Shown in pieces: positions 2,901-14,613 of a DNA stretch of 64,000 bases (positions are counted from its first letter, which is position 1; the number at the start of each line of letters is the position of its first letter). The notes beneath the pieces are model-generated. The model was not told the origin of the DNA. It searched no databases and saw nothing but the letters and a program-made list of their open reading frames with translations. This DNA is from Candidatus Marinacidobacterium sp. GTDB taxonomy: Bacteria; Acidobacteriota; Vicinamibacteria; Marinacidobacterales; Marinacidobacteraceae. The DNA lies in contig OZ251549.1 of the NCBI GenBank assembly GCA_965243415.1, positions 3,899,802 to 3,963,801 of the forward strand. The letters are read 5' to 3'. The position numbers and the translations under genes were made by a program.

Positions 2901-4048
2901 ACCGAACCATGACCGAACCGGAAGCAGAACCGACCCGAACCGATCCCCCAACCGAGTCGGCCGGCGCGGAATCGGAGCGGCAGGTCTTCGCCTTCGTGGT
3001 GGAAGAGGGGCCGAACGGCTTCGGGGCGTACGCGCCGGACCACCCGGCCTCCTTCGCCACCGGGAGCACCTTCGAGGAGGCGGTCCGCGCCTCGCGGGAT
3101 TCCCTGGCGACCCAACTGCGACTGCTCCACGGGATGGGCGACTACCTCCCGCACGCGGAACCGGAGACCGGGGGGCGTATGGAGCGCGCCGGCCGCACCG
3201 CCGAGGGCGAGGTCACCGACCCGGACCTCCGGATCGTCCTCCGGGAAGTCGGCCCCGAAGACGCGCCGCCGGACGCGCCCTCGCCGCCGCCCGTCGAAGG
3301 ACCGGCGCCGCCGCCGCGTCGGGAGAGTTTCCAGGCAGTCTTCGCCCAAGAGTCCGGTTACTACCTGGGCTACATCCCCGACCTGCCCGGCGGCATGGCC
3401 ATCTCCGACACCCTGGACGAGGCGCGCGAAGACCTGCTGCTCGGCACCACCGAGGGCCTGCAGAGCAAGGTGGACCTGGGCGAGACGATCCCCGAGAAAC
3501 GCCGGACCACGGAGGAGGCGATCACGCACCACTACGGACTCCGGCCGGAGAAGCCCCCTTCGCCCGGGGAATACGCCCCGAGGATCGAGACGGTGACCAT
3601 CGCTCTCAAGCCGCCCCGGGCGGCCGCCCGGATGCTGAAGCAGATGGAAGACGACGCCCTCGAACTCCGGGAGCGGTTCGAGGAAGGCCGCTGCCGCCGC
3701 CGGCCGCTGAAGCCCGGCGCTTCCTGGACCGGCCGTTACGCCGCGGTCTTCGAGCCCGGCGTCTTCTGTCCCACGGCCTATATCCCGGACCTCCCCGCCT
3801 GCTGTGTCGAGGGCGAGAACCGCGCCGAGGTACGGAAGAACCTCCACCGCGCCTTGACCGTCCACCTCTATCGCGCCCTCTCCGACAAGGGGACCTTCCC
3901 CCTGCCCCGCCGCAACCGCGCCCAGGCCCGGGCCCACAAACTGCGGAAGACCGTCGAATACGGCTTCGACCCCGAAGACGACCAGGGCGCCCACGAGACC
4001 GCGATGATCTCCGTCACCCTCCGCGCCCCCCACCCGGACTCCCGGTGA
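2897..4048 (+). CDS. Divergent triple-domain HicB-like protein without a cognate hicA; translationally coupled to hsdS
   Basis: Three HicB_N-like segments: FAFVVEEGPNGFGAYAPDHPASFATGSTFEEA; FQAVFAQESGYYLGYIPDLPGGMAISDTLDEA; YAAVFEPGVFCPTAYIPDLPACCVEGENRAEV. The start may instead be ATG 2909. The stop overlaps the hsdS GTG as GTGA (4045-4048). Confidence 0.7.
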   Translation: MNRTMTEPEAEPTRTDPPTESAGAESERQVFAFVVEEGPNGFGAYAPDHPASFATGSTFEEAVRASRDSLATQLRLLHGMGDYLPHAEPETGGRMERAGRTAEGEVTDPDLRIVLREVGPEDAPPDAPSPPPVEGPAPPPRRESFQAVFAQESGYYLGYIPDLPGGMAISDTLDEAREDLLLGTTEGLQSKVDLGETIPEKRRTTEEAITHHYGLRPEKPPSPGEYAPRIETVTIALKPPRAAARMLKQMEDDALELRERFEEGRCRRRPLKPGASWTGRYAAVFEPGVFCPTAYIPDLPACCVEGENRAEVRKNLHRALTVHLYRALSDKGTFPLPRRNRAQARAHKLRKTVEYGFDPEDDQGAHETAMISVTLRAPHPDSR

Positions 4049-5262
4049 CGCCGCCAGCATCGCGCTCGCTCCCCGAGGGCTGGGCCGTCGTGCCTCTTCG
4101 GAGGATCGCCTTCATCGGTGCAGGCGACCCCGCCCCACAGGACCCTGCCGACTTCGAGAACGGATGCCATCCGTTCGTCCGCACTGCCGATGTCGGCCGG
4201 GTCAAACGCTCCGGGGCCTTCCGCGGAACACGAGATCGCCTCACCGACGACGCTGTCCGCGAGCGACGACTCCGCTGCTGGCCGGCCGGGACGATTTTGG
4301 TCCCGAAGAGCGGCGCATCCACTGCTCTCAACAACCGCGTCCGCCTCGCTGAGCCCGCGTATGTCTCCTCCCATCTCGCTACAGTTCGCGCCCGCCCCGG
4401 AATCCATGAGGCATTTCTCTATCACGCACTCTGCCGTCTCGACGCGAATATGCTGATCGGTAACGCCGGATATCCATCTCTCAGCCTCGCCGAGTTGGGC
4501 TCCGCCCCCGTCCCGCTGCCGCCCCTGCGTGACCAAGAATCCATCTCGTCCGTGCTGCAGTCCGTCGATCACACTACCTTCCACACCGACGCCGTCACAC
4601 GAGCTACAGCTGCCCTTCGCCGCGCCCTGTCGCATCGTGTCCTGCACACCGGGCCAATCTACCGCCCGTCATCTCAGTCGGTGCCCGGAGTCTCCGAACG
4701 CCGCTCTCCCTCGATTGCCTCCACGCTCACCGTCGCCGACGCGCTCCGCCCGTTCCGTTTCAACCGCCGACAACAGGTCCCAAAACGGGCATATCGACCG
4801 AGTGGCACGTGGCCAGTCTACGACCAGAGTCCCAACGTCCCTGCTGCCTTCACCGATGATCCTCACCATGTCCTCCATTCTCGTGAGCCCGTCATTATTT
4901 TCGGCGACCACACAAAGACCTTCAAGTACGTCACCGCGCCGTTTGCTCTCGGAGCCGAAGGAACCAAGCCCTTTCTCGTAAGTCCTGATCTCGACCCGCG
5001 TTACGTCTTCCATGCCCTATTGAGCGTTCGAATTCCGGGAAGCGGCTACAATCGCTACTGGTCATCCCTGGCACGCCAGACACTCCACATTCCATCCCCA
5101 TCCAAGCAACGAGTCATCGCCGATTTCTTCGACTCGGTGGCTGACGCCGTCGAATCGGCAGAGTTCGCCGCGACTGCATCCGATTGTCTCTACAACTCGC
5201 TGCTCAACAGTACGACGCACGGACTGCAGCCAAAAGCCGGGCCCCACCCCGTGGAGTACTGA
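4045..5262 (+). CDS. hsdS: Type I restriction-modification specificity subunit HsdS
   Basis: 405 aa with a two-TRD layout and typical motifs: LPEGWAVVPLRRIA near the N-terminus and a central conserved PLPPLRDQESISSVL. GC is visibly lower than in the neighbours. Confidence 0.85.
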   Translation: MTPPASRSLPEGWAVVPLRRIAFIGAGDPAPQDPADFENGCHPFVRTADVGRVKRSGAFRGTRDRLTDDAVRERRLRCWPAGTILVPKSGASTALNNRVRLAEPAYVSSHLATVRARPGIHEAFLYHALCRLDANMLIGNAGYPSLSLAELGSAPVPLPPLRDQESISSVLQSVDHTTFHTDAVTRATAALRRALSHRVLHTGPIYRPSSQSVPGVSERRSPSIASTLTVADALRPFRFNRRQQVPKRAYRPSGTWPVYDQSPNVPAAFTDDPHHVLHSREPVIIFGDHTKTFKYVTAPFALGAEGTKPFLVSPDLDPRYVFHALLSVRIPGSGYNRYWSSLARQTLHIPSPSKQRVIADFFDSVADAVESAEFAATASDCLYNSLLNSTTHGLQPKAGPHPVEY

Positions 5263-5266
5263 ACAG

Positions 5267-6205
5267 ATGGCTCCGCTGACACACTTCATGAAGATGTACC
5301 GCACAGCGCACTCCGCAATGCTCGCGGCCATCGAGATCTACAACAAGCCAGTCGTTGAGCATCGCGAACAGACATTCTCCATTCTGTTCGTCAACGCATG
5401 GGAGATATTCTTCAAGGCAAGAATCGTCCAGCAGAACGGTAACGACCTGCGATCCATCTATGTCCGTGACAAGGATGGTATCCGCTTTCGCAGAAATCGA
5501 CTGACAGGGGACATTCTCACCATCGACCTCAGCGTTGCGATGGAGCGATCGGTAGCGCCACATGCCGTACAGGCCAACGTCCGAGGTATGACTGGTATAC
5601 GGAATGCTGCTATACACATGGGCACCCTCGCACCAAGTATAAGGACACGGATTCTCCAATTTGGCACGGCCGGCGTTCAATCCTTCGCACGACTGTGCGG
5701 CCGGTGGTTCGGTCAAAGCATGCATGCTCCGTATCTTCTGCCGCTCGGATTTGTGGGGTCAGCGGAGTTGGCTGTCGCGGCCGTCGGCGGAAAACAGAGA
5801 GATTTGCTTCGTTTTCTGGAAGGACTGTGCGATAGTGTCGGCGATGACTGCGACGGGTTCCGGGTATCCATAGCGACTCCTGTCCTCTTGAACCCAAAAA
5901 ACAGTGGCGGTGCGACGATTGGAGTAACCAATGACCCTACTGCGCCGACACTGCGGATGGAGGAAAATGATCTTCTCGATCGTTATTCGTCGACATATGG
6001 GGAGATGGTGGCAGTGTGTAAACGCAGATACTCCGACTTCAAGTGCAACAAGGCCTTCTATGCGATCAAGGCCAGATTCGACAAGGATCCAACGTGCTGC
6101 CTCGAGCGAAAGTTGGACCCGAAACGCGAGAGGGGGATCCTCAAGAGGTTCTACAACGTCGATGCTGTCTTCATCTACTTGGACAAGGCGTACACCGCTT
6201 CGTGA
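5267..6205 (+). CDS. DUF3644-like protein (accessory gene commonly embedded in type I R-M loci)
   Basis: The N-terminal pattern AMLAAIEIYNKP..HREQTFSILFVNAWEIFFKA matches my recollection of DUF3644. It sits between hsdS and hsdR, and its stop overlaps the hsdR GTG (GTGA, 6202-6205). Confidence 0.6.
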   Translation: MAPLTHFMKMYRTAHSAMLAAIEIYNKPVVEHREQTFSILFVNAWEIFFKARIVQQNGNDLRSIYVRDKDGIRFRRNRLTGDILTIDLSVAMERSVAPHAVQANVRGMTGIRNAAIHMGTLAPSIRTRILQFGTAGVQSFARLCGRWFGQSMHAPYLLPLGFVGSAELAVAAVGGKQRDLLRFLEGLCDSVGDDCDGFRVSIATPVLLNPKNSGGATIGVTNDPTAPTLRMEENDLLDRYSSTYGEMVAVCKRRYSDFKCNKAFYAIKARFDKDPTCCLERKLDPKRERGILKRFYNVDAVFIYLDKAYTAS

Positions 6206-9200
6206 CGTCCGTGGAAGCAGCCTACGCGGAGTGCCCAGCGCGGGCTCTCTTGGAGAGTCTCGGCTGGTTGTACCGACCGGGCCTCGGGGATGCGCGGAAT
6301 CGAGACGGCGCGAGGGACTCGCTGCTCGTTGATCGGCTGCGGGAGGCTCTGCTGCGGCTCAACGAGTGGATGACAGAGCACGAGGCCGAGCGGGTTATCT
6401 CGCGGCTGCGGCGCTCGGAGGGGGTCGGGGTCGTGGAGAACCGGCGGGTGCATGAGTGGTTGATCTACGGGATGCCGTTCGACACCGGCGGGGGGAGCGG
6501 GCCCCGAACCCGGAGCGTGCAGTTCTTCGACTTCGAGAACCCCGAGGGCGGGCGGAACGAGTTCGTCGTCACCACCCAGTTCCCGGTTCGCGGCGGTCGG
6601 GACCGGATCATCGCCGACCTGGTGCTGTTCGTGAACGGGATCCCGCTCGTCGTGATGGAAGCGAAATCCCCGACCGTCGGGTCGGGTTGGAAGACCGAGG
6701 CGGTGGACCAACTGCGCCGCTACCAGGGACTCGGGCCGCAGTACCGCGACCGGGGCGCGCCGGACCTCTTCCGCACCAACCTGCTCACCGTCGCCCACTG
6801 CGGCGCGAGGGCGGCGTACGGCGCGGTCGGGGCCGGGGAGGACGCCTACGCCGAGTGGAAGTCGGTCGAACCGCTCACCGACGACGAGGTGCGGGAACGG
6901 TACGGGGTCGAGCCGACCGGGCAGGCCCAACTCATCGTCGGCCTGCTCCACCCCGCCATGGTGCTCGAAGTGCTGCGGGACTTCGTGCTCTACGAACCGC
7001 AGAAAGGCCGGCTGGTCAAGAAACTGCCCCGCTACCAGCAGTACCGGGCGGTGCGGAAGGCCCTCGCGCGAATCCGCTCCGGGGGCCGGCCGGAACAGCG
7101 GGGCGGCGTGATCTGGCATACCCAGGGGTCGGGCAAGTCGCTGACCGCCTTCTGGCTGGCGACGAAACTGCGGCGCGACCCGGCCTTCGGGAACGCCACC
7201 ATCCTGGTCGTCACCGACCGGCGGCAACTGAACCGCCAGATCCGCGACACCTTCGACCGCTGCGGGTTCCCGGCCCCGGAGATGGCCGAGAGCGGCAAAC
7301 ACCTGGCCCGCCTGCTGACGAGCGGCCGCGGGCGCACGGTGATGACCACCATTCAGAAGTTCGACGACGCGGTGCCCGAAGAGGAACGGGCCACCGCCAC
7401 GCTCGATCCCTCCGACGAGGTCGTCGTCATGGTGGACGAGGCGCACCGGACGCAGTACGGGACGCTGGGCGCGATCCTCTCGCAGGCCCTGCCCCGCGCC
7501 GCGCTCATCGGGTTCACCGGTACGCCGATAGACAAAGGGTTCCGGCGCAGCACGATGAAGCGATTCGGTTCGCTCATCGATCGCTACACCATCGAACAGG
7601 CGGTGGAGGACGGCGCCACCGTCGAGATCCGCTACGAAGCGCGGCTGCCGGACCTCGCGGTCGAGGGCCCCCGGACGCTCGACCAGATCTTCGACGCCAT
7701 GTTCGGCAAGGAATCGGAGGAGGTGCAGGAGCAGGCCCGCCGGCGCTACGCGAACAAGGAGACCGTCGCCGAAGCCGACCGACGGATCCAGACGATCGCG
7801 CTCGACATCGCGGAACACTTCAAGACCCGGATCCGCCCCAACGGCTTCAAGGCGCAGGTGGTTGCGCCCGGACGCCGCGCCGCGCTCCGCTATTCGGGGT
7901 ACCTGAACGATTTCGGGATCCCGGCGTACCCGATCATCACCGTGGAACGGGGCGACGGGCCGGAGTTCGACGCCGCCCGTGAAGTGGACGAGGAGCAGAC
8001 CATCGGCGCGTTCAAAGACCCCGAAGGCGAACCGGAGATCCTGGTCGTCGTGGACCGGCTGCTCACCGGTTTCGACGCGCCGGTGGAGCAGGTGCTCTAT
8101 CTCGACCATGTCCTCCGGGACCACAACCTGCTCCAGGCCATCGCCCGGGTGAACCGCCGATTCCGCCATCTCCGGGACGGCGTTTGGACCGAGAAGACCT
8201 ACGGCCTAGTGGTGGACTACTGCGGGGTATCGGGAAACCTGGAGCAGGCGCTCTCCTCGTTCGCCTCGTCCGAGGTGAAGGGCGCGATGCTCGAAACCGA
8301 AGCGGATCCGGCCACGGTCATCGAGGCGGCCGCCGTCCGCGCCGAATCGCATTTCAAGGGACGCGACCCGGGGGATCCCGCCGACGCGGCGCTGGTGTTC
8401 GTCGGCGACGGAGACGACTACGAAGGGAGCCGTTTCCGGGAGGACGCCTTCGAGCGGTTCGAAGCGGACTACCGGGCCTTCGCGCGCCTCATGGACCGTT
8501 TCCTTCCCGATCCACGCGCCCTGCGTTACGCGGACCGGCTGGCGCGGCTCAAGGGGATCCGGGCGTTCGTCCGCGCCCAGTACCTGCGCCGGGACGATGC
8601 GGTGGACTGGGCCGACCTCGGCGCCAAGGTGCGGCGGTTGATAGACGGCCGCATCTCCGCCGAAGTGCGGGAGTTGATGGCGCCGGTCTCCATCCTCGCC
8701 GGGGACTTCGAGGAGCGGATCGCCGCCCTGCCCCACGACGAAGCGCGGGCGTCGGTCATGGAACACGCGATCCGGGCGGAGATCCGCGAACGCCTGCGGG
8801 AGAACCGCGCCTACTACGAGAAGTTGTCCGAGAAACTGGCGCGCATCATCCGGGAACTGCGCGAGCAGGTGATCGAAGCCGCGGAGGCGGTGCGGCGGCT
8901 GCGCGAACTGCGCGCCGAGATGCGGGGGGAGGCCGACAGCGCCCGGGCGCGGGGGCTCTCGCCGCTCGCGTTCTCCATCTTCCGGTTGTTGGAACAGCAG
9001 CCGCCGGCGGCGGAACCGGCGGGGGCGGTCGGCGAGATCGCGGAGGAGGCGAATCCCGACGCGGACGCCGTTCGCTCGCGCGCCGCCGGGAAGATCGCGG
9101 AAGTCGTCGGGAAGTACCGGAAGTTCGTGGACTGGGAGGCGAACGAGGAGGTGCGGCGGCGGATGCGGCGGGAGATCAAGCGGCAACTGCGCGAGGACGG

Positions 9201-9273
9201 CTACGCGGAGATGCATCTCACCCGGCTGGCGGTCCAGGTGGTCGAGATCGCGCGGCGGCAGCCGGACGAGTGA
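6202..9273 (+). CDS. hsdR: Type I restriction enzyme R subunit HsdR (SF2 helicase-nuclease)
   Basis: In-frame GTG at 6202 within track ORF 6043..9273. Motifs present: HTQGSGKS, VVTDRRQL, DEAH box MVDEAHRTQYG, GFTGTPI and a QAIARVNR-type motif VI. Confidence 0.95.
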   Translation: MTSVEAAYAECPARALLESLGWLYRPGLGDARNRDGARDSLLVDRLREALLRLNEWMTEHEAERVISRLRRSEGVGVVENRRVHEWLIYGMPFDTGGGSGPRTRSVQFFDFENPEGGRNEFVVTTQFPVRGGRDRIIADLVLFVNGIPLVVMEAKSPTVGSGWKTEAVDQLRRYQGLGPQYRDRGAPDLFRTNLLTVAHCGARAAYGAVGAGEDAYAEWKSVEPLTDDEVRERYGVEPTGQAQLIVGLLHPAMVLEVLRDFVLYEPQKGRLVKKLPRYQQYRAVRKALARIRSGGRPEQRGGVIWHTQGSGKSLTAFWLATKLRRDPAFGNATILVVTDRRQLNRQIRDTFDRCGFPAPEMAESGKHLARLLTSGRGRTVMTTIQKFDDAVPEEERATATLDPSDEVVVMVDEAHRTQYGTLGAILSQALPRAALIGFTGTPIDKGFRRSTMKRFGSLIDRYTIEQAVEDGATVEIRYEARLPDLAVEGPRTLDQIFDAMFGKESEEVQEQARRRYANKETVAEADRRIQTIALDIAEHFKTRIRPNGFKAQVVAPGRRAALRYSGYLNDFGIPAYPIITVERGDGPEFDAAREVDEEQTIGAFKDPEGEPEILVVVDRLLTGFDAPVEQVLYLDHVLRDHNLLQAIARVNRRFRHLRDGVWTEKTYGLVVDYCGVSGNLEQALSSFASSEVKGAMLETEADPATVIEAAAVRAESHFKGRDPGDPADAALVFVGDGDDYEGSRFREDAFERFEADYRAFARLMDRFLPDPRALRYADRLARLKGIRAFVRAQYLRRDDAVDWADLGAKVRRLIDGRISAEVRELMAPVSILAGDFEERIAALPHDEARASVMEHAIRAEIRERLRENRAYYEKLSEKLARIIRELREQVIEAAEAVRRLRELRAEMRGEADSARARGLSPLAFSIFRLLEQQPPAAEPAGAVGEIAEEANPDADAVRSRAAGKIAEVVGKYRKFVDWEANEEVRRRMRREIKRQLREDGYAEMHLTRLAVQVVEIARRQPDE

Positions 9274-9292
9274 GGCGGACGGGTGCGGCGCC

Positions 9293-10090
9293 GTGACTCC
9301 GGGGGAAGCGGCCGTGGCGGAGTTCGGGGAAGTCCGGTTCGGGGAGACCGCGATCCGGTTCGAGGTGCGCCGCAGCGCCCGGCGGCGGAAGACGGTGCGG
9401 ATCCGCGTCGAGGAGGGGCGGGTGCTGGCCGCGGCGCCGGAGGCGATGGCGACGGAAGAGATCGGGGCGATCGTGCGGCGGCGCGCCGGCTGGATCCGGC
9501 GGCGGCTGGCGGCGCCCGGACCGGAGGCGGAACCGGCGCCGAAGCGGTTCGTGAGCGGGGAGACGCTGCCCTATCTGGGACGGAGCGTGCGGCTGGTGGT
9601 GGAGCGCGGCGGGGCGGACGCGCCGGCGGTGCGGTTCGACCACTGGCGGCTGCGGGTGGCCGTGTCCGACGGTGATGGCGTGGGCGACGGCGGCGGTGGC
9701 GTCGTCGGGGACGCGGGCGGGGAGCGGCGCGAGCGGGTGCGGCGGGCGGTGCTCGACTGGTTCCGGGGGCGCGCCGCCGACCGGGCCCGGGCGAGCGTGG
9801 CGCGCTGGCTGCCGCGGTTCGGCCGGGCGGAGGCGCCGGAGGTCCTGATCCGTGACCAGCGGAAGAGATGGGGGAGTTGCGCGCCGGACGGAGCGCTGCG
9901 GTTCAACTGGCGGGTGGTGATGCTGCCGCCGCGCCTGCTGGACTATGTGGTGGCCCACGAGATCGCGCACTTGGCCGTGCCGAACCACTCCCCGGCGTTC
10001 TGGTCGCACCTGGCGTCGGCGATGCCGGACTGGCGCGAACGGCGGGCGCGGCTGCGGGAGGCGGGCGCGACCCTGCCGTCGCTGTCGTAG
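9293..10090 (+). CDS. YgjP-like zinc metallohydrolase (DUF45 / M48 superfamily), frequent type I R-M companion
   Basis: 265 aa with WGSC...LRFNWR and an HExxH motif (VVAHEIAHLAVPNHSPAFW). It lies directly downstream of hsdR. Confidence 0.85.
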   Translation: MTPGEAAVAEFGEVRFGETAIRFEVRRSARRRKTVRIRVEEGRVLAAAPEAMATEEIGAIVRRRAGWIRRRLAAPGPEAEPAPKRFVSGETLPYLGRSVRLVVERGGADAPAVRFDHWRLRVAVSDGDGVGDGGGGVVGDAGGERRERVRRAVLDWFRGRAADRARASVARWLPRFGRAEAPEVLIRDQRKRWGSCAPDGALRFNWRVVMLPPRLLDYVVAHEIAHLAVPNHSPAFWSHLASAMPDWRERRARLREAGATLPSLS

Positions 10091-10110
10091 CGGAGCGGGG
10101 CGGCGGAACG

Positions 10111-10228
10111 GGTTCGCTCCGTATCGGGTCGATCCGTATCGGCTCGATCCGCGTCGGCTCGATCCCTATCGGGTTCGATCCACATCGGGTCGATCCGCAT
10201 CGGGTCGATCCACATCGGCTCGGTCCGC
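10111..10228. repeat. Eight tandem ~15 bp units (consensus GGSTCGATCCNNATC)
   Basis: Read directly: ggttcgctccgtatc / gggtcgatccgtatc / ggctcgatccgcgtc / ggctcgatccctatc / gggttcgatccacatc / gggtcgatccgcatc / gggtcgatccacatc / ggctcggtccgcc. It shares the TCGATCC core with the following satellite. Confidence 0.9.
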
Positions 10229-10254
10229 CAACGGGTCCACCACCGATGTGCGCA

Positions 10255-11393
10255 GGGTGGTCGATCCGCCGAAGGGTGGTCGATCCGACACAGGGTGGTC
10301 GATCCGCCGAAGGGTGGTCGATCCGCCGAAGGGTGGTCGATCCAGCCCAGGGTGGTCGATCCGTCGGAGGGTGGCCGATCCGCCAGAGGGTGGTCGATCC
10401 GACACAGGGTGGTCGATCCGACACAGGGTGGTCGATCCGACACAGGGTGGTCGATCCGCCGAAGGGTGGTCGATCCGTCGGAGGGTGGCCGATCCGCCGA
10501 AGGGTGGTCGATCCGACACAGGGTGGTCGATCCGACACAGGGTGGTCGATCCGCCGAAGAGTGGTCGATCCGACACAGGGTGGTCGATCCGCCGGAGGGT
10601 GGTCAATACGCCGTAGGGTGGTCGATCCGGCGCAGGGTGGTCGATCCGTCGTAGCGTGGTCGATCCGCCACAGGGTGGTCGATCCGCCGAAGGGTGGTCG
10701 ATCCGCCGGAGGGTGGTCGATCCGCCGCAGGGTGGTCGATCCGCCGCAGGGTGGTCGATCCGCCGGAGGGTGGTCGATCCGCCGCAGGGTGGTCGATCCG
10801 TCGTAGGGTGGTCGATCCGGCGCAGGGTGGTCGATCCAGCCCGGGGTGGTCGATCGGTCGGGGGGTGGTCGATCCGCCACAGGGTGGTCGATCCGCCGAA
10901 GGGTGGTCGATCCGCCACAGGGTGGTCGATCTGCCACAGGGGTCGATCCGCCGGAGGGTGGTCGATCCGCCGCAGGGTGGTCGATCCGTCGGAGGGTGGT
11001 CGATCCGCCGCAGGGTGGTCGATCCGACACAGGGTGGTCGATCCGCCAGAGGGTGGTCAATACCGCCGGAGGGTGGTCAATACGCCGGAGGGTGGTCAAT
11101 ACCGCCGGAGGGTGGTCAATACACCGGAAGGTGGTCAATACGCCGGAGGGTGGTCAATACGCCGTAGGGTGGTCAATACGCCGTAGGGTGGTCGATCCGG
11201 CGCAGGGTGGTCAATCCGCCAGGGTGGTCGATCCGCCGCAGGGTGGTCGATCCGCCGCAGGGTGGTCGATCCGCCGCAGGGTGGTCGATCCGCCGTAGGG
11301 TGGTCGATCCGCCGAAGGGTGGTCGATCCGCCGGACGATGGTCGATCCAACCGGAAGGTGGTCGATCCGCTGAGAGTGGTCGATCCGCCGACA
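10255..11393. repeat. Satellite of about 60 tandem 19 bp units: 13 nt constant core GGTGGTCGATCCG plus 6 variable nt
   Basis: Units such as gggtggtcgatccgccgaa, gggtggtcgatccgacaca and gggtggccgatccgccaga repeat head to tail. A variant block gggtggtcaatacgccgga clusters at about 11050-11180. A 19 bp period is not a multiple of 3, and most units are stop-free in all six frames. This explains the many overlapping track ORFs here. Confidence 0.95.
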
Positions 11394-12016
11394 GCGAAGG
11401 TCGGGGGGCGTTCGAGGGGAGACCCGCGGCGCGGCTCCTTCCGGTCGGGCGGCCGGGGCGACGCCGCGGCCGGGCGGCCGGCCGGAGGCGCGGCGGGCGG
11501 CCGGACGCTCCCGGGCGCGGCTTCGGCGCTGTCGAACGAGGCGGGGCGCGCCGCCGGGGGAGCCGACGCGCGGACGGCGCGAGGGTCGGAAAATCCATGA
11601 CAGGTTTTGTCCGGTGCGCCGCTTACGGTTCTCGCCATGAACCTCCGAGCCCGCCTCCCCGGCGATCCGGCGACCGACGCCGGGAGCGCCCCCCGGCGCT
11701 TTCCGCCCGTGGGGGCTCTCGTCGGCGAGCGTTCCCTCACCGGGTCCCCGGTCTGGCGCCGGGGGGCGGTGGAGCGGGTGCGCGCCTGTCGCCGGCTGGC
11801 GCTGGACTGCGCGGCCGCCCGTCGGAGCGACCGTCCGCCGGGAGACCGACCCGACGGGAGCGCCGCGCCGGAGTACCGCGGCGGGAGCGCCCGAACTTCG
11901 GGAGAAGGATCGAAACCCGAGGGGCCGCACGACCCCGAATCACACGACCCCGAATCGCACGACCCCGAATCGCACGACACCGAACGGATCACGACGGACG
12001 GAGAGGAAGACGACAG

Positions 12017-13399
12017 ATGAACCGAAGAATCCCCGCACCCCGAACGGGCGCGGGCGGGTCGACGAACCGCGCCACGATCCCCGCCGCCATCCTTCTGGTA
12101 GCAACGATGGCGCTGGCCGGGTGCAGCCCGGACGGCCCCTCCGCGCCCACCGCTCCGGCGACCGACCGCCCGGCGGCCGGACCCGCCGCGCCGACGCCGC
12201 CGACAGCCGGGACCGACGCAGGAAGCGGATCGTTCTCCTGGAGCATCGAGATGCATCGGGGCGGCTCGACCTTCGCGTGGGCGGTGAAGGACCGGACGGT
12301 CGCCGCCGGGGAGACCGGCGCGCACGCGCTGCCCCGGGGCTTCTGGCACGGCGAGTTGCAGCAGCCGGTGGTCCATGTCCGGGCGGGCTACGAAGACGCC
12401 GCCGGCGCGGTGTCCCTGTCCGTCGCCTCCCGCACCGCGCCGCCCTACCGGCCGCACGATTCCCGCTTCGGCGACTCCTTCGGGGGCGGCGAGGCGTATG
12501 TGTATGTCGGCGGTTACGGCGACCTGACCCTGGAAGCGCGGCACCTCCCCTCCGGCGCCGCTTCCCGGTTCCGCCTCGAGATCGGCGAGCTCCGCGACAA
12601 CGCCCCCGACCTGGAAACGATCTGGTTCGCCAGGGAACACGCCCGGCCCGTCATCCCCGCGGTCGGTCGGCTCCCGGCGACCTGCGACCCGGCGCTCCGG
12701 GCGAGCGCGGTCCGCTTCACCGAAGGGGTCTGGGAGGACTGGAGACTGCCGATCCCGGTGGACCTGGTGGACAACTTCCCGACCGTCCGGGAACCGTGGA
12801 TCTGGACGAACGGCGAACCCACCGGTTACCTGGAAGCGTTCGATTTCTCCGTGATGCAGGAACAGATCGAGGCCTACGCCGAACAGATCGAGCAGAACCT
12901 CGGCTTCCCGATCATCGAGTTCGGGCGCGTGATCTCCGCGGACACGCTGGAGCGCGAAGGCGGGGCGAATCGCCCGCGGCGGACCGAGCGGCTCCATGTC
13001 GGCTACCGCGTCGGCGACTGTTCCCTCGCCGCCGCCGCCTGTGCGCACCTCGAGTCCGGTTTCGCCTCCTGGTGGGTGCGCGCTTCCGCCGGCGACTCCG
13101 GGGAAGCGGTCGGGATGGCGCACGAGATCGAACACCTGCTCGGCTTCAAACACGAGTACAGCGAGTTCGACGCAACCTCGCGGAACCCGGACGGCGTGGC
13201 GATGGACCAACCGGAATACCGCAACTTCCTCCCCGGCCAGCGGTACTGGACGGGGAACCACAGATGGCAGTGCGGCCGGACCGGGCCGAACACCGTCTCC
13301 TCGACGGACTCCTGCTACAAGGAATGGGACGACTCCCGATACACCGCCTCCGCCACCCTGGCGAACCTCTACTGCATCTTCGAGACCCAGCGGCGCTGA
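12017..13399 (+). CDS. Lipoprotein with metzincin-type zinc-protease motif
   Basis: In-frame ATG at 12017 preceded by ggagaggaag. Signal peptide plus lipobox LLVATMALAGCS. HExxHxxGxxH motif (AHEIEHLLGFKH). The upstream part of track ORF 11207..13399 lies in repeat DNA and is rejected. Confidence 0.75.
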   Translation: MNRRIPAPRTGAGGSTNRATIPAAILLVATMALAGCSPDGPSAPTAPATDRPAAGPAAPTPPTAGTDAGSGSFSWSIEMHRGGSTFAWAVKDRTVAAGETGAHALPRGFWHGELQQPVVHVRAGYEDAAGAVSLSVASRTAPPYRPHDSRFGDSFGGGEAYVYVGGYGDLTLEARHLPSGAASRFRLEIGELRDNAPDLETIWFAREHARPVIPAVGRLPATCDPALRASAVRFTEGVWEDWRLPIPVDLVDNFPTVREPWIWTNGEPTGYLEAFDFSVMQEQIEAYAEQIEQNLGFPIIEFGRVISADTLEREGGANRPRRTERLHVGYRVGDCSLAAAACAHLESGFASWWVRASAGDSGEAVGMAHEIEHLLGFKHEYSEFDATSRNPDGVAMDQPEYRNFLPGQRYWTGNHRWQCGRTGPNTVSSTDSCYKEWDDSRYTASATLANLYCIFETQRR

Positions 13400-13506
13400 C
13401 GCCCCGGTTCCACGCCCGATCTCGCAAACCGACGGCGCCCGAGCCATCGCCTCCGACCGGAATCCTCCGCCCCGCCGCCCCCACCCCGAACACCCACCGA
13501 GAATCC

Positions 13507-14613
13507 ATGCCACAACCCATGCTGAAACCCTTCCCCGCTCCGACCCTCCCTTCCTCCATCGTCGTCGTCCTCGGGGCACTGGCGCTCGCGGCCTGCGCCG
13601 GGACTTCGCGGCCGACGCGACACCTGTCCCCGGAGGATCAGGCCCGCGTCGCCCGGGAGACCGCTCTCCAGGCAGAGATGGCGCTCACCACGATGATGGA
13701 GAACGACGACCGCCTCTCACGGGTGGCGCTGCCGATCCAGCAGGCGGCGGTCCCGCTCTGCCCTCCGGCGCGGCTCGGGACGCGCTACGGATACCGCGTG
13801 GCGGTGCTCGAGAGTTTTCCGGAGGAGTTCCGCGACGCCGCCTCGCGCCTCCGCGGGATGGATCATCGGGTCTCGCTGCTCTCGGTGACTTCGGGATCAC
13901 CGATGGCGCTCGCCGGTTTCCGGGCCGGCGACCGGGTGCGGGGCGTCAACGGCTCCCCCGTCCGTCCGGGAAAGGCCGGACTGTCGGACTTGGACAAGAG
14001 ACTCCGGGACGGCGCCTCGAACTCTTTCCGGGTCGCGCGCGGCTTCGATGAGTCGGAAGAGTCGCCGGAGGAACACTCGGCGGAGGTCACCGGGGTGTCG
14101 GTCTGCGGCGAGGCGCCGGTCGTGCTCGACGGCGACTCCACCACGAACGCCTTCACCGACGGCGAGAACATCTACCTGACCCAGGGAATGATGGGTTTCG
14201 TGGAGTCGGACGACGAACTGGCGATGGTCGTCGCCCACGAACTGGGCCACATCGTCGGCGGCCATGTGCAGAAGAAGAAGATGAATGCGTTCTGGGGCGC
14301 CCTCGGCGGCGCGCTGCTCGACGGCCTCGCCGCCCGATACGGCGGAGTGGACACCCGCGGGGCCTACTCGGAGGCGCTGGCGGTGGCCGCCTCCCGGAAG
14401 TACAGCCAGGACTTCGAGAACGAAGCGGACGCCCTCGGCGCCGAGATCCTGGCGGCGGCGGGCATCGACTTCTTCGACGCGATCGACTTCTGGCGGCGCA
14501 TCTCCATGGAGTCCCCGGGCGGAGTCGCCGCCTCGCACAACGCCTCGCATCCGTCGTCCCCGGAGCGATTCATCCGCCTCACCGACCTCCATGCCGAGTT
14601 CTTCCCCCGATGA
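13507..14613 (+). CDS. M48-family (HtpX/BepA-like) metallopeptidase lipoprotein with PDZ-like insert
   Basis: In-frame ATG at 13507. Signal/lipobox LGALALAACAG. PDZ-like LLSVTSGSPMALAGFRAGDRVRGVNGSPV. HExxH motif (VVAHELGHIVGGH) with a downstream ENEAD glutamate region. Confidence 0.85.
   Translation: MPQPMLKPFPAPTLPSSIVVVLGALALAACAGTSRPTRHLSPEDQARVARETALQAEMALTTMMENDDRLSRVALPIQQAAVPLCPPARLGTRYGYRVAVLESFPEEFRDAASRLRGMDHRVSLLSVTSGSPMALAGFRAGDRVRGVNGSPVRPGKAGLSDLDKRLRDGASNSFRVARGFDESEESPEEHSAEVTGVSVCGEAPVVLDGDSTTNAFTDGENIYLTQGMMGFVESDDELAMVVAHELGHIVGGHVQKKKMNAFWGALGGALLDGLAARYGGVDTRGAYSEALAVAASRKYSQDFENEADALGAEILAAAGIDFFDAIDFWRRISMESPGGVAASHNASHPSSPERFIRLTDLHAEFFPR

What the first reader, a model, noticed from the sequence alone, without database searches (positions are those of the whole stretch)
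10111..11393. 1.3 kb satellite: about 60 head-to-tail 19 bp units with a 13 nt invariant core and a 6 nt hypervariable tail, directly after the R-M operon
Seen: 8 units of ~15 bp (GGSTCGATCCNNATC) are followed by ~60 units of 19 bp, each GGTGGTCGATCCG plus a variable hexamer (CCGAAG, ACACAG, CCGCAG, TCGGAG, CCAGAG, GCGCAG, TCGTAG and others). A sub-block of a variant core (GGTGGTCAATAC) lies near 11050-11180. Nearly every unit contains TCGA and GATC. Most units are stop-free in all six frames, which produces a dozen spurious ORFs. A 19 bp period rules out a simple in-frame protein repeat. It is not a CRISPR array, because the variable part is 6 nt rather than spacer-sized. Inference: the options are a dense array of binding sites for a sequence-specific protein (iteron or centromere-like, or a titration sink), a hotspot of about 50 GATC methylation sites, a slippage-prone contingency tract, or a selfish minisatellite. 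The constant-core plus variable-tail design is unusual for bacterial satellites.
Basis: seen in the sequence. Interest (0 to 1): 0.6.

Follow-up and report, generated by a model that had tools for sequence, protein, structure and literature searches.

The report
Multi-locus bacterial minisatellite with conserved core
The 1.3-kb repeat tract is real, non-coding satellite DNA: it is one of ten arrays of the same 19-21 bp unit in an uncultured sponge-associated bacterium, it is absent from the closest relative, and most copies sit next to an expanded family of stand-alone DNA methylase genes.

Summary
Window 10109-10237 holds about 8 copies of a 15-bp unit, and 10251-11390 holds about 60 copies of a 19-bp unit.

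The tract is not tied to the type I R-M operon. The same unit forms 10 arrays of 0.8-3 kb (about 860 units, about 17.7 kb) across this 4.48-Mb, 72% GC genome. It does not occur as scattered single copies.

It was not found in 100 relatives. The closed genome of the same genus is collinear at three array loci but has short, non-repetitive spacers there. It was also absent from the other public collections searched.

Short-read contigs from at least four sponge metagenome runs break at the array edges. Some of these strains differ by about 3% in the flanks. The arrays are therefore real and kept at their loci.

- **Conservation pattern:** GGTGGTCGAT and A18 are almost invariant. Positions 14 and 17 are almost random. 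Core variants occur only as singletons.
- **Shared core:** the same GG(N)TCGATCC core also appears in repeats of period 15/16, about 30, 56 and 90 bp.
- **Gene linkage:** six arrays, plus an unexpanded 3-copy version with 30-bp spacing, lie upstream of orphan DUF1156 (HmaB / BREX-related) methylase paralogs.

Best reading: a lineage-specific minisatellite that grows by slippage or unequal exchange and spreads by segmental duplication. Its core is probably a recognised site. No function has been shown.

The parts
9293..10090 (+). ygjP-like metallopeptidase gene, last gene of the type I R-M cluster (context, not part of the satellite). Its last ~95 bp were copied together with the satellite to a second locus.
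   Evidence: Pfam YgjP-like, E 1.3e-52. A 183-bp stretch spanning the ygjP 3' end and the adjacent leader (81% identity) lies upstream of the array at genome 1152.5-1155.5 kb. ygjP is single-copy by tblastn.
10109..10237 (+). Leader: about 8 copies of the 15/16-bp unit GGSTCGATCCNNATC, which shares the TCGATCC core with the 19-mers.
   Evidence: TRF period 15, 8.4 copies. The same leader type lies on the 5' side of six of the ten 19-mer arrays, on the same strand, and also forms arrays of its own.
10238..10250 (+). Leader-to-array junction. The full stretch is ...GGCTCGGTCCGCCAACGGGTCCACCACCGATGTGCGCAG, which runs on a few bases past 10250.
   Evidence: Seen in the sequence. A related junction, GGCTCGGTCCGCCAGCGATGTG, follows the leader of the array at genome 4324 kb.
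10251..11390 (+). Main array: about 60 units of 19 bp, GGTGGTCGATCCG + NCGNAG. The strand shown is G-rich (G 468, C 305). Units at the 3' edge are degenerate.
11052..11186 (+). Sub-block of 7 units with the variant core GGTGGTCAATAC (19 and 20 bp). One more copy lies at 10598.
   Evidence: The same variant occurs in the arrays at genome 1153-1155 kb, 2081 kb and 2521-2522 kb.
11391..12120 (+). Non-repetitive spacer up to the next ORF, the metalloprotease gene region. Part of it (about 11450-11690) has a 71%-identical copy downstream of the 1152-kb array.
4045..9273 (+). Type I R-M genes hsdS, a DUF3644 gene and hsdR (context only).
   Evidence: Pfam. An hsdM-like ORF lies outside the window at genome 3895102-3897228. 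That assignment rests on its motifs only, not on a Pfam scan.

Best explanation
The tract is one member of a lineage-specific, non-coding, multi-locus minisatellite family, that is, bacterial satellite DNA. All members are built around the conserved core GGTGGTCGAT(CC).

Shown here:
- Ten arrays carry about 860 units of 19-21 bp.
- The layout has a fixed polarity: 15/16-bp leader repeats, then the 19/21-bp array.
- Each array has its own dominant unit variants.
- Multi-unit blocks are duplicated inside arrays, and array edges are degenerate.
- The arrays are present at the same loci in diverged strains and absent from the collinear loci of the same-genus genome.
- Flanking unique DNA has been copied along with arrays: the ygjP 3' end, and whole DUF1156 methylase gene modules.

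Inferred: the 19-bp unit arose from a short set of core copies spaced about 30 bp apart, in the upstream region of an orphan DUF1156 (HmaB / BREX-related) methylase gene. It then expanded by slipped-strand mispairing or unequal sister exchange, and it was carried to new loci by segmental duplication or ectopic recombination anchored in the arrays.

Core variants exist only as singletons, spacer positions vary freely, and the same core is kept in repeats of several unrelated periods. The core is therefore most likely a recognised site. The recogniser could be a DNA-binding protein or enzyme, or the amplification process itself.

The window copy probably has no dedicated role in the neighbouring type I R-M operon.
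For: - **Multi-locus arrays:**
- **Non-coding:** ORFs over arrays have flat GC1/2/3 of about 0.69/0.65/0.72, against GC3 of 0.85-0.95 in real genes. Units of 17, 18, 20 and 21 bp break every frame. There is no significant Pfam hit and no Rfam hit.
- **Concerted evolution:** 107 of 152 unit types are private to one array. Bray-Curtis dissimilarity between arrays is 0.52-0.94. Adjacent units are identical 2-5 times more often than random pairs in 8 of the 10 arrays (1.1-1.3 times in the arrays at 512 and 4324 kb). Six-unit blocks are duplicated.
- **Core constraint:** among the 48 unit types seen at least twice, positions 2-7, 9 and 10 never vary, whereas 29 and 22 of them vary at positions 14 and 17.
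- **Same core at other periods:** 28-32-bp units lie at the 5' edge of the arrays at 209 and 2520 kb. A 3-copy version spaced 29-30 bp lies at genome 3749447-3749530 and has the same two junctions as the 2520-kb array. Repeats of period 15/16, 32, 56 and 90 bp also carry the core.
- **Linkage to DUF1156 genes:**. These copies are orphans, because DUF499 occurs at only three other loci.
- **Lineage-specific insertion:** the closed same-genus genome G001 has 0 matches. Its spacers at three collinear loci are about 800, 235 and 520 bp, against 2030, 2407 and 6071 bp here.
- **Real and conserved in strains:**
Against: - No direct evidence for slippage rates or for length polymorphism. Only short-read contigs were available and they cannot span the arrays.
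- Keeping 1-3 kb arrays at the same loci in strains about 3% apart, together with the strict conservation of the core, would also fit a selected cellular function.
- How arrays reached loci that have no methylase gene (this window, 209 kb, 4324 kb) is unknown.
- The direction of change between the 3-copy version and the 110-unit array (expansion or collapse) is inferred, not shown.
Confidence: 0.62

Rival explanations
1. The arrays are functional protein-binding platforms. A dedicated sequence-specific DNA-binding protein recognises GGTGGTCGAT. The arrays would then act as titration sinks, insulators or nucleoid-organising (iteron- or centromere-like) domains at ten chromosomal sites.
For: - Near-absolute conservation of a 10-bp core against free spacer positions.
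- The same core is kept in repeats with unrelated spacers and periods.
- Three diverged 30-bp units with intact cores lie in a divergent promoter region.
- Arrays are retained at their loci in strains about 3% apart.
Against: - No candidate binding-protein gene recurs next to the arrays except the methylase.
- The periods (15/16, 19, 21, about 30 bp) share no helical phase, which argues against a cooperative filament on one face of the helix.
- The core is at chance level outside the arrays, so there is no regulon.
- The arrays are absent from the congener, so no conserved cellular role is needed.
- No rep or par genes appeared among my ORF calls in the flanks, although most of those ORFs were not scanned against Pfam.
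Confidence: 0.2
2. The arrays are dense target arrays for adenine methylases. Either TCGA/GATC sites, or 6-mers with A at position 5 on either strand (ATCGAC and GACCAC in the core, NCGNAG in the spacer), are methylated by the adjoining BREX-like DUF1156 methylases. The arrays would then act as methylation sinks or epigenetic regulatory platforms upstream of those genes.
For: - Six arrays and the 3-copy version lie within 130-330 bp upstream of DUF1156 N6-adenine methylase paralogs.
- Both expansions are specific to this lineage.
- A18 is invariant, while positions 14 and 17 around it sample 13 of the 16 NCGNAG combinations.
- Published MmeI-family and BREX sites have this shape: ATCGAC, GACCAC, GCGGAG, CCYCAG (PMC2731913) and ACRCAG (PMC11317158).
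Against: - The resemblance to known sites is weak evidence. So many hexamers are known sites that GC-rich DNA will match some by chance.
- Four arrays, including this one, have no DUF1156 gene nearby.
- Three paralogs with the same 5' region have no adjacent array.
- 21-bp units lack GATC.
- No methylation data could be obtained.
Confidence: 0.1
3. The array is a contingency (phase-variation) tract. Changes in unit number would switch or tune expression of the downstream gene: the metalloprotease here, and methylase or Fic genes elsewhere.
For: - In 8-9 of 10 arrays the G-rich strand is co-oriented with the next downstream gene. These cases are not independent.
- Tandem arrays are intrinsically unstable.
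Against: - Known contingency repeats have units of 1-9 bp and lie inside a promoter spacer or an ORF.
- Here 0.8-3 kb arrays lie 75-730 bp from starts that are still preceded by their own conserved upstream regions.
- No promoter-like consensus was found in or next to the array.
Confidence: 0.04
4. The tract is coding (a 19-aa periodic protein read over three units), a structured or processed RNA array, or an assembly artefact.
For: - There are few stop codons in all six frames.
- The RNA fold z-score is about -3.
Against: - GC3 is flat, indel units shift the frame, and there are no family hits.
- No Rfam hit.
- The fold signal is explained by pairing between the partly palindromic GGTCGATC segments of different units.
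- Contigs from four or more independent runs end exactly at the array borders, and array words have 10-60 times the depth of the flanks.
Confidence: 0.03

Closest known systems
Bacterial VNTR / minisatellite families such as mycobacterial MIRU-VNTR loci
   Same: Non-coding head-to-tail repeats of tens of bp. One unit family is present at several intergenic loci, and it evolves by slippage or unequal exchange.
   Different: Here the unit is 19-21 bp, not 40-100 bp. Each array holds 25-150 copies (up to 3 kb) rather than a few. Repeat types are ordered in a composite (leader, then array), with an almost invariant core and near-random spacer positions. Most arrays are linked to one expanded gene family.
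Cyanobacterial STRR (short tandemly repeated repetitive) heptamer arrays (from my own knowledge, not tested here)
   Same: Lineage-specific short tandem arrays at many intergenic loci of one genome, with no known function.
   Different: STRR units are 7 bp and the arrays are short. They have no core-plus-variable-spacer design and no known link to methylase genes.
Human hypervariable minisatellite families that share a G-rich core (Jeffreys-type) (from my own knowledge)
   Same: Many loci share a short G-rich core inside units whose remainder varies. Arrays are locus-specific in unit composition, strand-asymmetric and recombinogenic.
   Different: Those are eukaryotic and meiotic. The similarity of the cores (GGAGGTGG... 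against GGAGGGTGG...) is only a resemblance. A Chi-like role was tested here and not supported, because unit sub-words are not over-represented outside the arrays.
Plasmid and phage iterons and parC-type centromeres (for example the 19-bp iterons of P1 and F) (from my own knowledge)
   Same: Direct repeats of 17-22 bp with a conserved recognition core, read by one protein.
   Different: Iterons and centromere repeats number about 3-12 and lie beside rep or par genes and an origin. Here there are 25-150 copies at ten chromosomal loci, and no rep or par gene or AT-rich region was seen.
CRISPR arrays
   Same: Regularly spaced identical cores separated by variable sequence.
   Different: The variable part is 4-6 nt drawn from a small shared repertoire, not unique spacers of 26-72 nt. 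No cas genes are adjacent, and the period is 19 bp.
REP / BIME dispersed elements
   Same: A species-specific intergenic repeat family, possibly recognised by a protein.
   Different: REPs are imperfect palindromes scattered singly or in small clusters, hundreds of times over. This unit is not palindromic and occurs almost only in long arrays.

Membership tests
CRISPR array | Repeats of 21-48 bp separated by unique spacers of similar or greater length | tested here: not met
   The period is 19 bp. The variable part is 4-6 nt and the same variants recur within and between arrays.
CRISPR array | cas genes or a leader nearby | tested here: not met
   The flanking genes are hsdR, ygjP and a metalloprotease. 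No cas-like ORFs were seen around the other arrays among the ORFs that were scanned.
REP/BIME-type dispersed element | Hundreds of single or small-cluster copies spread over intergenic regions | tested here: not met
   The 13-mer occurs 479 times. All but five copies lie in the ten arrays: two isolated copies, three core copies in the 3-copy version at 3749 kb (two of them exact 13-mers), and a 2-copy relic around one of the isolated copies. The 10-mer core occurs 15 times outside arrays against 7.5 expected.
REP/BIME-type dispersed element | Imperfect palindrome forming a hairpin | tested here: not met
   The unit contains only the short partial palindrome GGTCGATC. Folding gives pairing between units, not a hairpin per unit.
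Replicon iterons | A few (3-12) direct repeats of 17-22 bp next to a rep gene, DnaA boxes and an AT-rich region | tested here: not met
   The period fits, but there are 25-150 copies per array. The region is 68-72% GC with no AT-rich stretch. No rep gene was seen among the flanking ORFs.
Partition centromere (parC/parS arrays) | Adjacent parA/parB or parM/parR genes | tested here: inconclusive
   No such genes appeared among the flanking ORFs inspected, but not every flanking ORF was scanned against Pfam.
Bacterial minisatellite / VNTR family | Non-coding head-to-tail repeats with a unit of about 10-100 bp | tested here: met
Bacterial minisatellite / VNTR family | The same unit family at several loci | tested here: met
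   Ten arrays.
Bacterial minisatellite / VNTR family | Turnover by local duplication and deletion (slippage or unequal exchange) | tested here: met
   Block duplications. Adjacent units are identical 2-5 times more often than random pairs in 8 of the 10 arrays (1.1-1.3 times in the other two), and each array has its own variants.
Bacterial minisatellite / VNTR family | Copy-number polymorphism between strains | tested here: inconclusive
   Only short-read contigs were available, and they end at the array borders in every strain. In the strains about 3% apart, some bins of strain-specific units have zero depth, so unit content differs. Array length could not be read, and no long-read run was listed.
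Simple-sequence contingency locus | Unit of 1-9 bp inside a promoter spacer or a reading frame | tested here: not met
   The unit is 19-21 bp. The array lies between genes and 730 bp from the next ORF.
Chi- or uptake-sequence-like genomic signal | The word is over-represented genome-wide | tested here: not met
   All 7- and 8-mers of the unit have observed/expected ratios of 0.74-1.25 outside the arrays.

The most novel reading that the evidence does not exclude
The conserved core and the invariant adenine in the spacer are recognition sites of the expanded orphan BREX-related (DUF1156) methylases, or of their HTH-like domains. On this reading the arrays are self-amplifying platforms of methylase targets or binding sites. 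They would titrate or epigenetically regulate these enzymes, and they would serve as homology anchors that copy methylase modules around the chromosome. The hypervariable positions 14 and 17 would sample alternative target specificities.
Probability: 0.12. Interest if true: 0.85.

Novelty: new variant of a known kind. Interest (0 to 1): 0.55.

Why it matters
Long, multi-locus satellite arrays with a conserved core are rare in bacteria. Here they make up about 0.4-0.5% of a symbiont genome in which 3.2% of the DNA is tandemly repeated.

The family appeared after this species split from its closest sequenced relative. It is kept in diverged strains. It is physically tied to a 4-5-fold expansion of stand-alone BREX-related methylase genes.

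That makes it a natural system for asking three questions: how satellite DNA is born from a few spaced motif copies, whether arrays drive segmental duplication of defence-type genes, and whether a bacterial protein recognises such arrays.

There are practical consequences too. These arrays break short-read assemblies of this symbiont exactly at their borders, and they could serve as strain-typing (VNTR) markers in long-read metagenomes.

Tried and rejected
- **CRISPR, REP/BIME, iteron and contingency-locus membership:** see the membership table.
- **Coding:** flat GC3, frame-breaking units, and no significant Pfam hit. The only match was Extensin at 30 bits against a cut-off of 105.
- **Structured RNA:** no Rfam hit at E up to 1. 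The fold z-score of about -3 is explained by pairing between the partly palindromic GGTCGATC segments of different units.
- **Promoter or terminator consensus:** none in 9200-12400.
- **Chi- or uptake-like word:** no sub-word of the unit is over-represented outside the arrays.
- **Replichore bias:** array strands (7 on -, 3 on +) do not follow the weak GC-skew pattern.
- **Methylase module as a transposon with the core in terminal inverted repeats:** a leader-like GGCTCGATCCGCGCC does lie near the 3' end of several modules, but the end-to-end alignment is weak, with scores of 21-23.
- **Origin from a PIN/vapC gene:** the only match outside this species is a 19-bp tandem duplication inside a Nakamurella vapC 5' end. 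None of the 8 isolated core copies examined in this genome lies in a PIN-like frame.
- **Other collections:** no match in JGI metagenome contigs or IMG/VR.
- **RNA and long-read runs:** none usable were listed.
- **Taxon name:** a search with HsdR returned only a 55%-identical Dehalococcoidaceae MAG. The phylum given in earlier AI notes therefore remains unverified by me.
Full report
**1. The observation**

The sequence shows the tract as described. Tandem Repeats Finder gives 10109-10237 (period 15, 8.4 copies) and 10251-11390 (period 19, 60.1 copies, score 1528).

The 13-mer GGTGGTCGATCCG, with up to one mismatch, occurs 50 times. All copies are on the + strand inside the tract. Shuffles give 0.57.

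The array has 51 GATC sites, 49 TCGA sites, 2-4 stops per frame and a G-rich top strand. The variant core GGTGGTCAATAC occurs 8 times.

Upstream on the + strand lie hsdS, a DUF3644 gene, hsdR and ygjP. An hsdM-like ORF lies just outside the window, identified by its motifs only. The next ORF downstream carries PDZ and M48 peptidase domains.

**2. It is one of ten arrays**

The whole genome is a single 4.476-Mb contig at 72% GC. The window is 3899802-3963801.

The 13-mer occurs 479 times, in ten tandem arrays of 0.8-3.0 kb. They lie at about 209, 512, 869, 1152, 2080, 2520, 3499, 3910 (this one), 4194 and 4324 kb. Seven are on the - strand and three on the + strand. Together they hold about 860 units and about 17.7 kb.

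Outside the arrays the core is at chance level, 15 against 7.5 expected for the 10-mer. No sub-word of the unit is over-represented. So this is neither a locus-specific appendage of the R-M operon nor a dispersed REP-like element.

The genome as a whole is very rich in tandem repeats: 194 arrays with TRF score of at least 200, totalling 144 kb or 3.2%. This family, with its leader-type relatives, accounts for most of the short-period fraction.

**3. Anatomy of the unit**

Over 579 19-mers, GGTGGTCGAT, G13 and A18 are nearly invariant. Position 14 (1.90 bits) and position 17 (1.57 bits) are close to random. Positions 12, 15, 16 and 19 are intermediate.

The spacer reads NCGNAG, with 13 of the 16 combinations seen, or NNNGAA. 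167 units are 21-mers with GATATC in place of GATC. Units of 17, 18 and 20 bp also occur.

Mutations do hit the core, but they stay as singletons. Among the 48 unit types seen at least twice, positions 2-7, 9 and 10 never vary, while 29 and 22 types vary at positions 14 and 17.

The same GG(N)TCGATCC core is found in several other repeats:
- the 15/16-bp leader repeats;
- 28-32-bp units at the 5' edge of the arrays at 209 and 2520 kb;
- arrays of period 32, 56 and 90 bp.

Where present, the parts stand in a fixed order on one strand: an AGCATGTGTCA-type repeat of about 31 bp, then the leader, then the 19/21-mers.

**4. Dynamics**

Each array has its own dominant variants. 107 of 152 unit types are private to one array, and Bray-Curtis dissimilarity between arrays is 0.52-0.94. 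Thirty types are shared by three or more arrays. Adjacent units are identical 2-5 times more often than random pairs in 8 of the 10 arrays; in the arrays at 512 and 4324 kb the excess is only 1.1-1.3 times. Blocks of six units are duplicated. Edge units are degenerate.

This is the signature of concerted evolution by local duplication and deletion.

**5. Not coding, not a known RNA**

ORFs across the arrays have flat GC1/2/3 and no significant Pfam match. Indel units break every frame. Rfam gives nothing. The fold z-score of about -3 comes from pairing between the partly palindromic GGTCGATC segments of different units. No promoter-like or terminator-like consensus was found.

**6. The real neighbour: orphan DUF1156 methylase genes**

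Flank comparison shows that six arrays adjoin paralogs of a gene of about 1000 aa. Pfam identifies it as DUF1156 with a weak D12-class N6-adenine methylase match.

The literature describes DUF1156 proteins as HmaB, the methylase of the Hma / DUF499-centred BREX-related systems, with C-terminal HTH-like domains (PMC11232893; bioRxiv 10.1101/2025.10.09.681413).

This genome has 13-15 close paralogs, against 3 in the same-genus genome. DUF499 occurs at only three other loci, so the array-linked copies are stand-alone genes.

The arrays lie upstream of a conserved 5' region of about 250 bp. They occur in either orientation and with at least three different junctions.

One paralog, at genome 3746-3749 kb, carries an unexpanded version. 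Three cores are spaced 29-30 bp apart and their spacers have diverged. They lie between the methylase gene and a divergent Fic gene. Both junctions match those of the 110-unit array at 2520 kb, and that array still begins with three such 30-bp units.

Four arrays, including the window's, have no DUF1156 sequence nearby.

**7. Spread**

The array at 1152 kb is preceded by a 183-bp, 81%-identical copy spanning the 3' end of ygjP (a single-copy gene) and the adjacent leader. It is followed by a 71%-identical copy of part of the window's downstream spacer. A segment containing the window's array and both its flanks was therefore duplicated.

The methylase paralogs share homology from the array junction to about 100-170 bp past their stop codons.

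At 3499-3503 kb an IS256-family transposase gene lies between the leader repeats and the 19-mer array.

**8. Age and distribution**

None of 100 relatives has even the loose pattern of three TCGATCC cores spaced at the 19-bp period. Several of these relatives are single-contig genomes, including the only other species of the genus.

That genome is collinear at three array loci but has short, non-repetitive spacers:

| Locus | Spacer in G001 | Spacer here |
|---|---|---|
| ygjP to protease | about 800 bp | 2030 bp |
| asparaginase to DUF4097 gene | 235 bp | 2407 bp |
| S9 peptidase to small ORF | 520 bp | 6071 bp (methylase gene plus array) |

Its DUF1156 genes lack both the conserved 5' region and any repeats.

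Searches of 185,579 species genomes, JGI metagenome contigs and IMG/VR gave only one hit. It is a 19-bp tandem duplication inside a Nakamurella vapC gene, which I take to be a coincidence.

**9. Reality and strains**

Several public runs labelled as sponge metagenomes contain this organism. In runs with identical flanks (X1, X2), and in runs with about 1% (X10) and about 3% (X5, X7) divergence in the flanks, contigs stop at the array borders. This was tested at two loci. Array words have 10-60 times the depth of the flanks.

Some bins of array-specific units have zero depth in the 3% strains, so unit content differs between strains. Array length could not be compared, because no long-read or RNA runs were listed.

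**10. Interpretation**

*Shown:* this is a non-coding, lineage-specific, multi-locus minisatellite family. It has a conserved core, it evolves by local duplication, it is duplicated together with its flanks, and it is linked to orphan BREX-related methylase genes.

*Inferred:* it was born from spaced core copies in the upstream region of that gene family, and it spread by array-anchored segmental duplication. The core is a recognised site, either of a protein or of the amplification process itself. The different periods share no helical phase, which argues against a cooperative filament on one face of the helix and for recognition of each site on its own.

I give 0.62 to the minisatellite reading, 0.20 to a selected protein-binding array, 0.10 to a methylase-target platform and less than 0.1 to the rest.

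The methylase-target idea rests partly on the shape of the words in the unit. ATCGAC, GACCAC, GCGGAG, CCCCAG and ACRCAG are all published MmeI-family or BREX sites. That is a lead, not a test.

The phylum (Acidobacteriota, Vicinamibacteria-like) comes only from earlier AI notes. I did not verify it.

Noticed in passing
Genome C1: 4190968, 2522880, 2526104, 3746302, 508908, 1146595, 3496991 and split copies at 144495, 486654, 692522, 2077809, 3576499, 3861546: There are 13-15 close paralogs (58-92% aa identity) of a ~1000-aa DUF1156 (HmaB / BREX-related) methylase gene, against 3 in the same-genus genome. Most are stand-alone, since DUF499 occurs at only three loci. About nine share a conserved ~250-bp 5' region that contains a DnaA-box-like TTATCCAC.
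   Followed up: partly
Whole genome (C1): There are 194 tandem arrays with TRF score of at least 200, totalling 144 kb (3.2% of the genome). They include two coding arrays with a 342-bp period, 17.7 kb and 9.0 kb long.
   Followed up: partly
L001:403-434 (Nakamurella sp. MAG, JBPCPG010000272.1): This is the only match outside the species: a 19-bp tandem duplication identical to two satellite units. It lies inside the 5' end of a vapC-like gene (…ILVDTSVRIDHL…). The reverse complement of the core encodes (R/W)IDH. Probably a coincidence.
   Followed up: partly
Genome C1:3501458-3502720: An IS256 / Mutator-family transposase gene (Pfam E 8e-126) lies between the 15-bp leader repeats and the 19-mer array of the 3499-kb locus.
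   Followed up: partly
Genome C1:871150-871307, 1155732-1155816, 3503001-3503133, 3751693-3751952, 2274442-2274849, 4156154-4156910: A third repeat family (AGCATGTGTCA-type, about 31-bp period) lies next to leader repeats at four loci and stands alone at two.
   Followed up: no
window 12121-14613: This 830-aa ORF joins an N-terminal part and an M48-PDZ C-terminal part. Their best matches in the same-genus genome lie at two different loci: 586588-588003 (with two in-frame stops) and 3032228-3033352. It may be a fusion, or two genes merged by my ORF call.
   Followed up: no
Genome C1:3895102-3897228 (2.6-4.7 kb before the window start): An hsdM-like ORF, with HsdM N-terminal and FYTPR…GSGGML motifs, lies upstream of the HicAB rows. 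The methylase of the type I system is therefore outside the window. This was judged by motifs only, not by Pfam.
   Followed up: partly
window 11926-11984: An unrelated 15-bp tandem repeat (CGCACGACCCCGAAT, 3.9 copies) lies just upstream of the protease ORF.
   Followed up: no
Genome C1:3032960-3033030: A two-unit relic of the satellite (CGGATCGACCACCCTTCGG … CGGATCCACCACTTTCGG, about 32 bp apart) lies between a TonB-dependent-receptor-like gene and a hydrolase-like gene.
   Followed up: partly
3' ends of DUF1156 modules, e.g. genome C1:4190800-4190965 and 3496850-3496990: About 150 bp past the stop codon, several paralogs end with a single leader-like GGCTCGATCCGCGCC. A test for terminal inverted repeats gave only weak scores.
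   Followed up: partly
All ten arrays: In 8-9 of 10 arrays the G-rich strand is the sense strand of the next downstream gene. The cases are not independent, and two of the gene calls are uncertain.
   Followed up: partly
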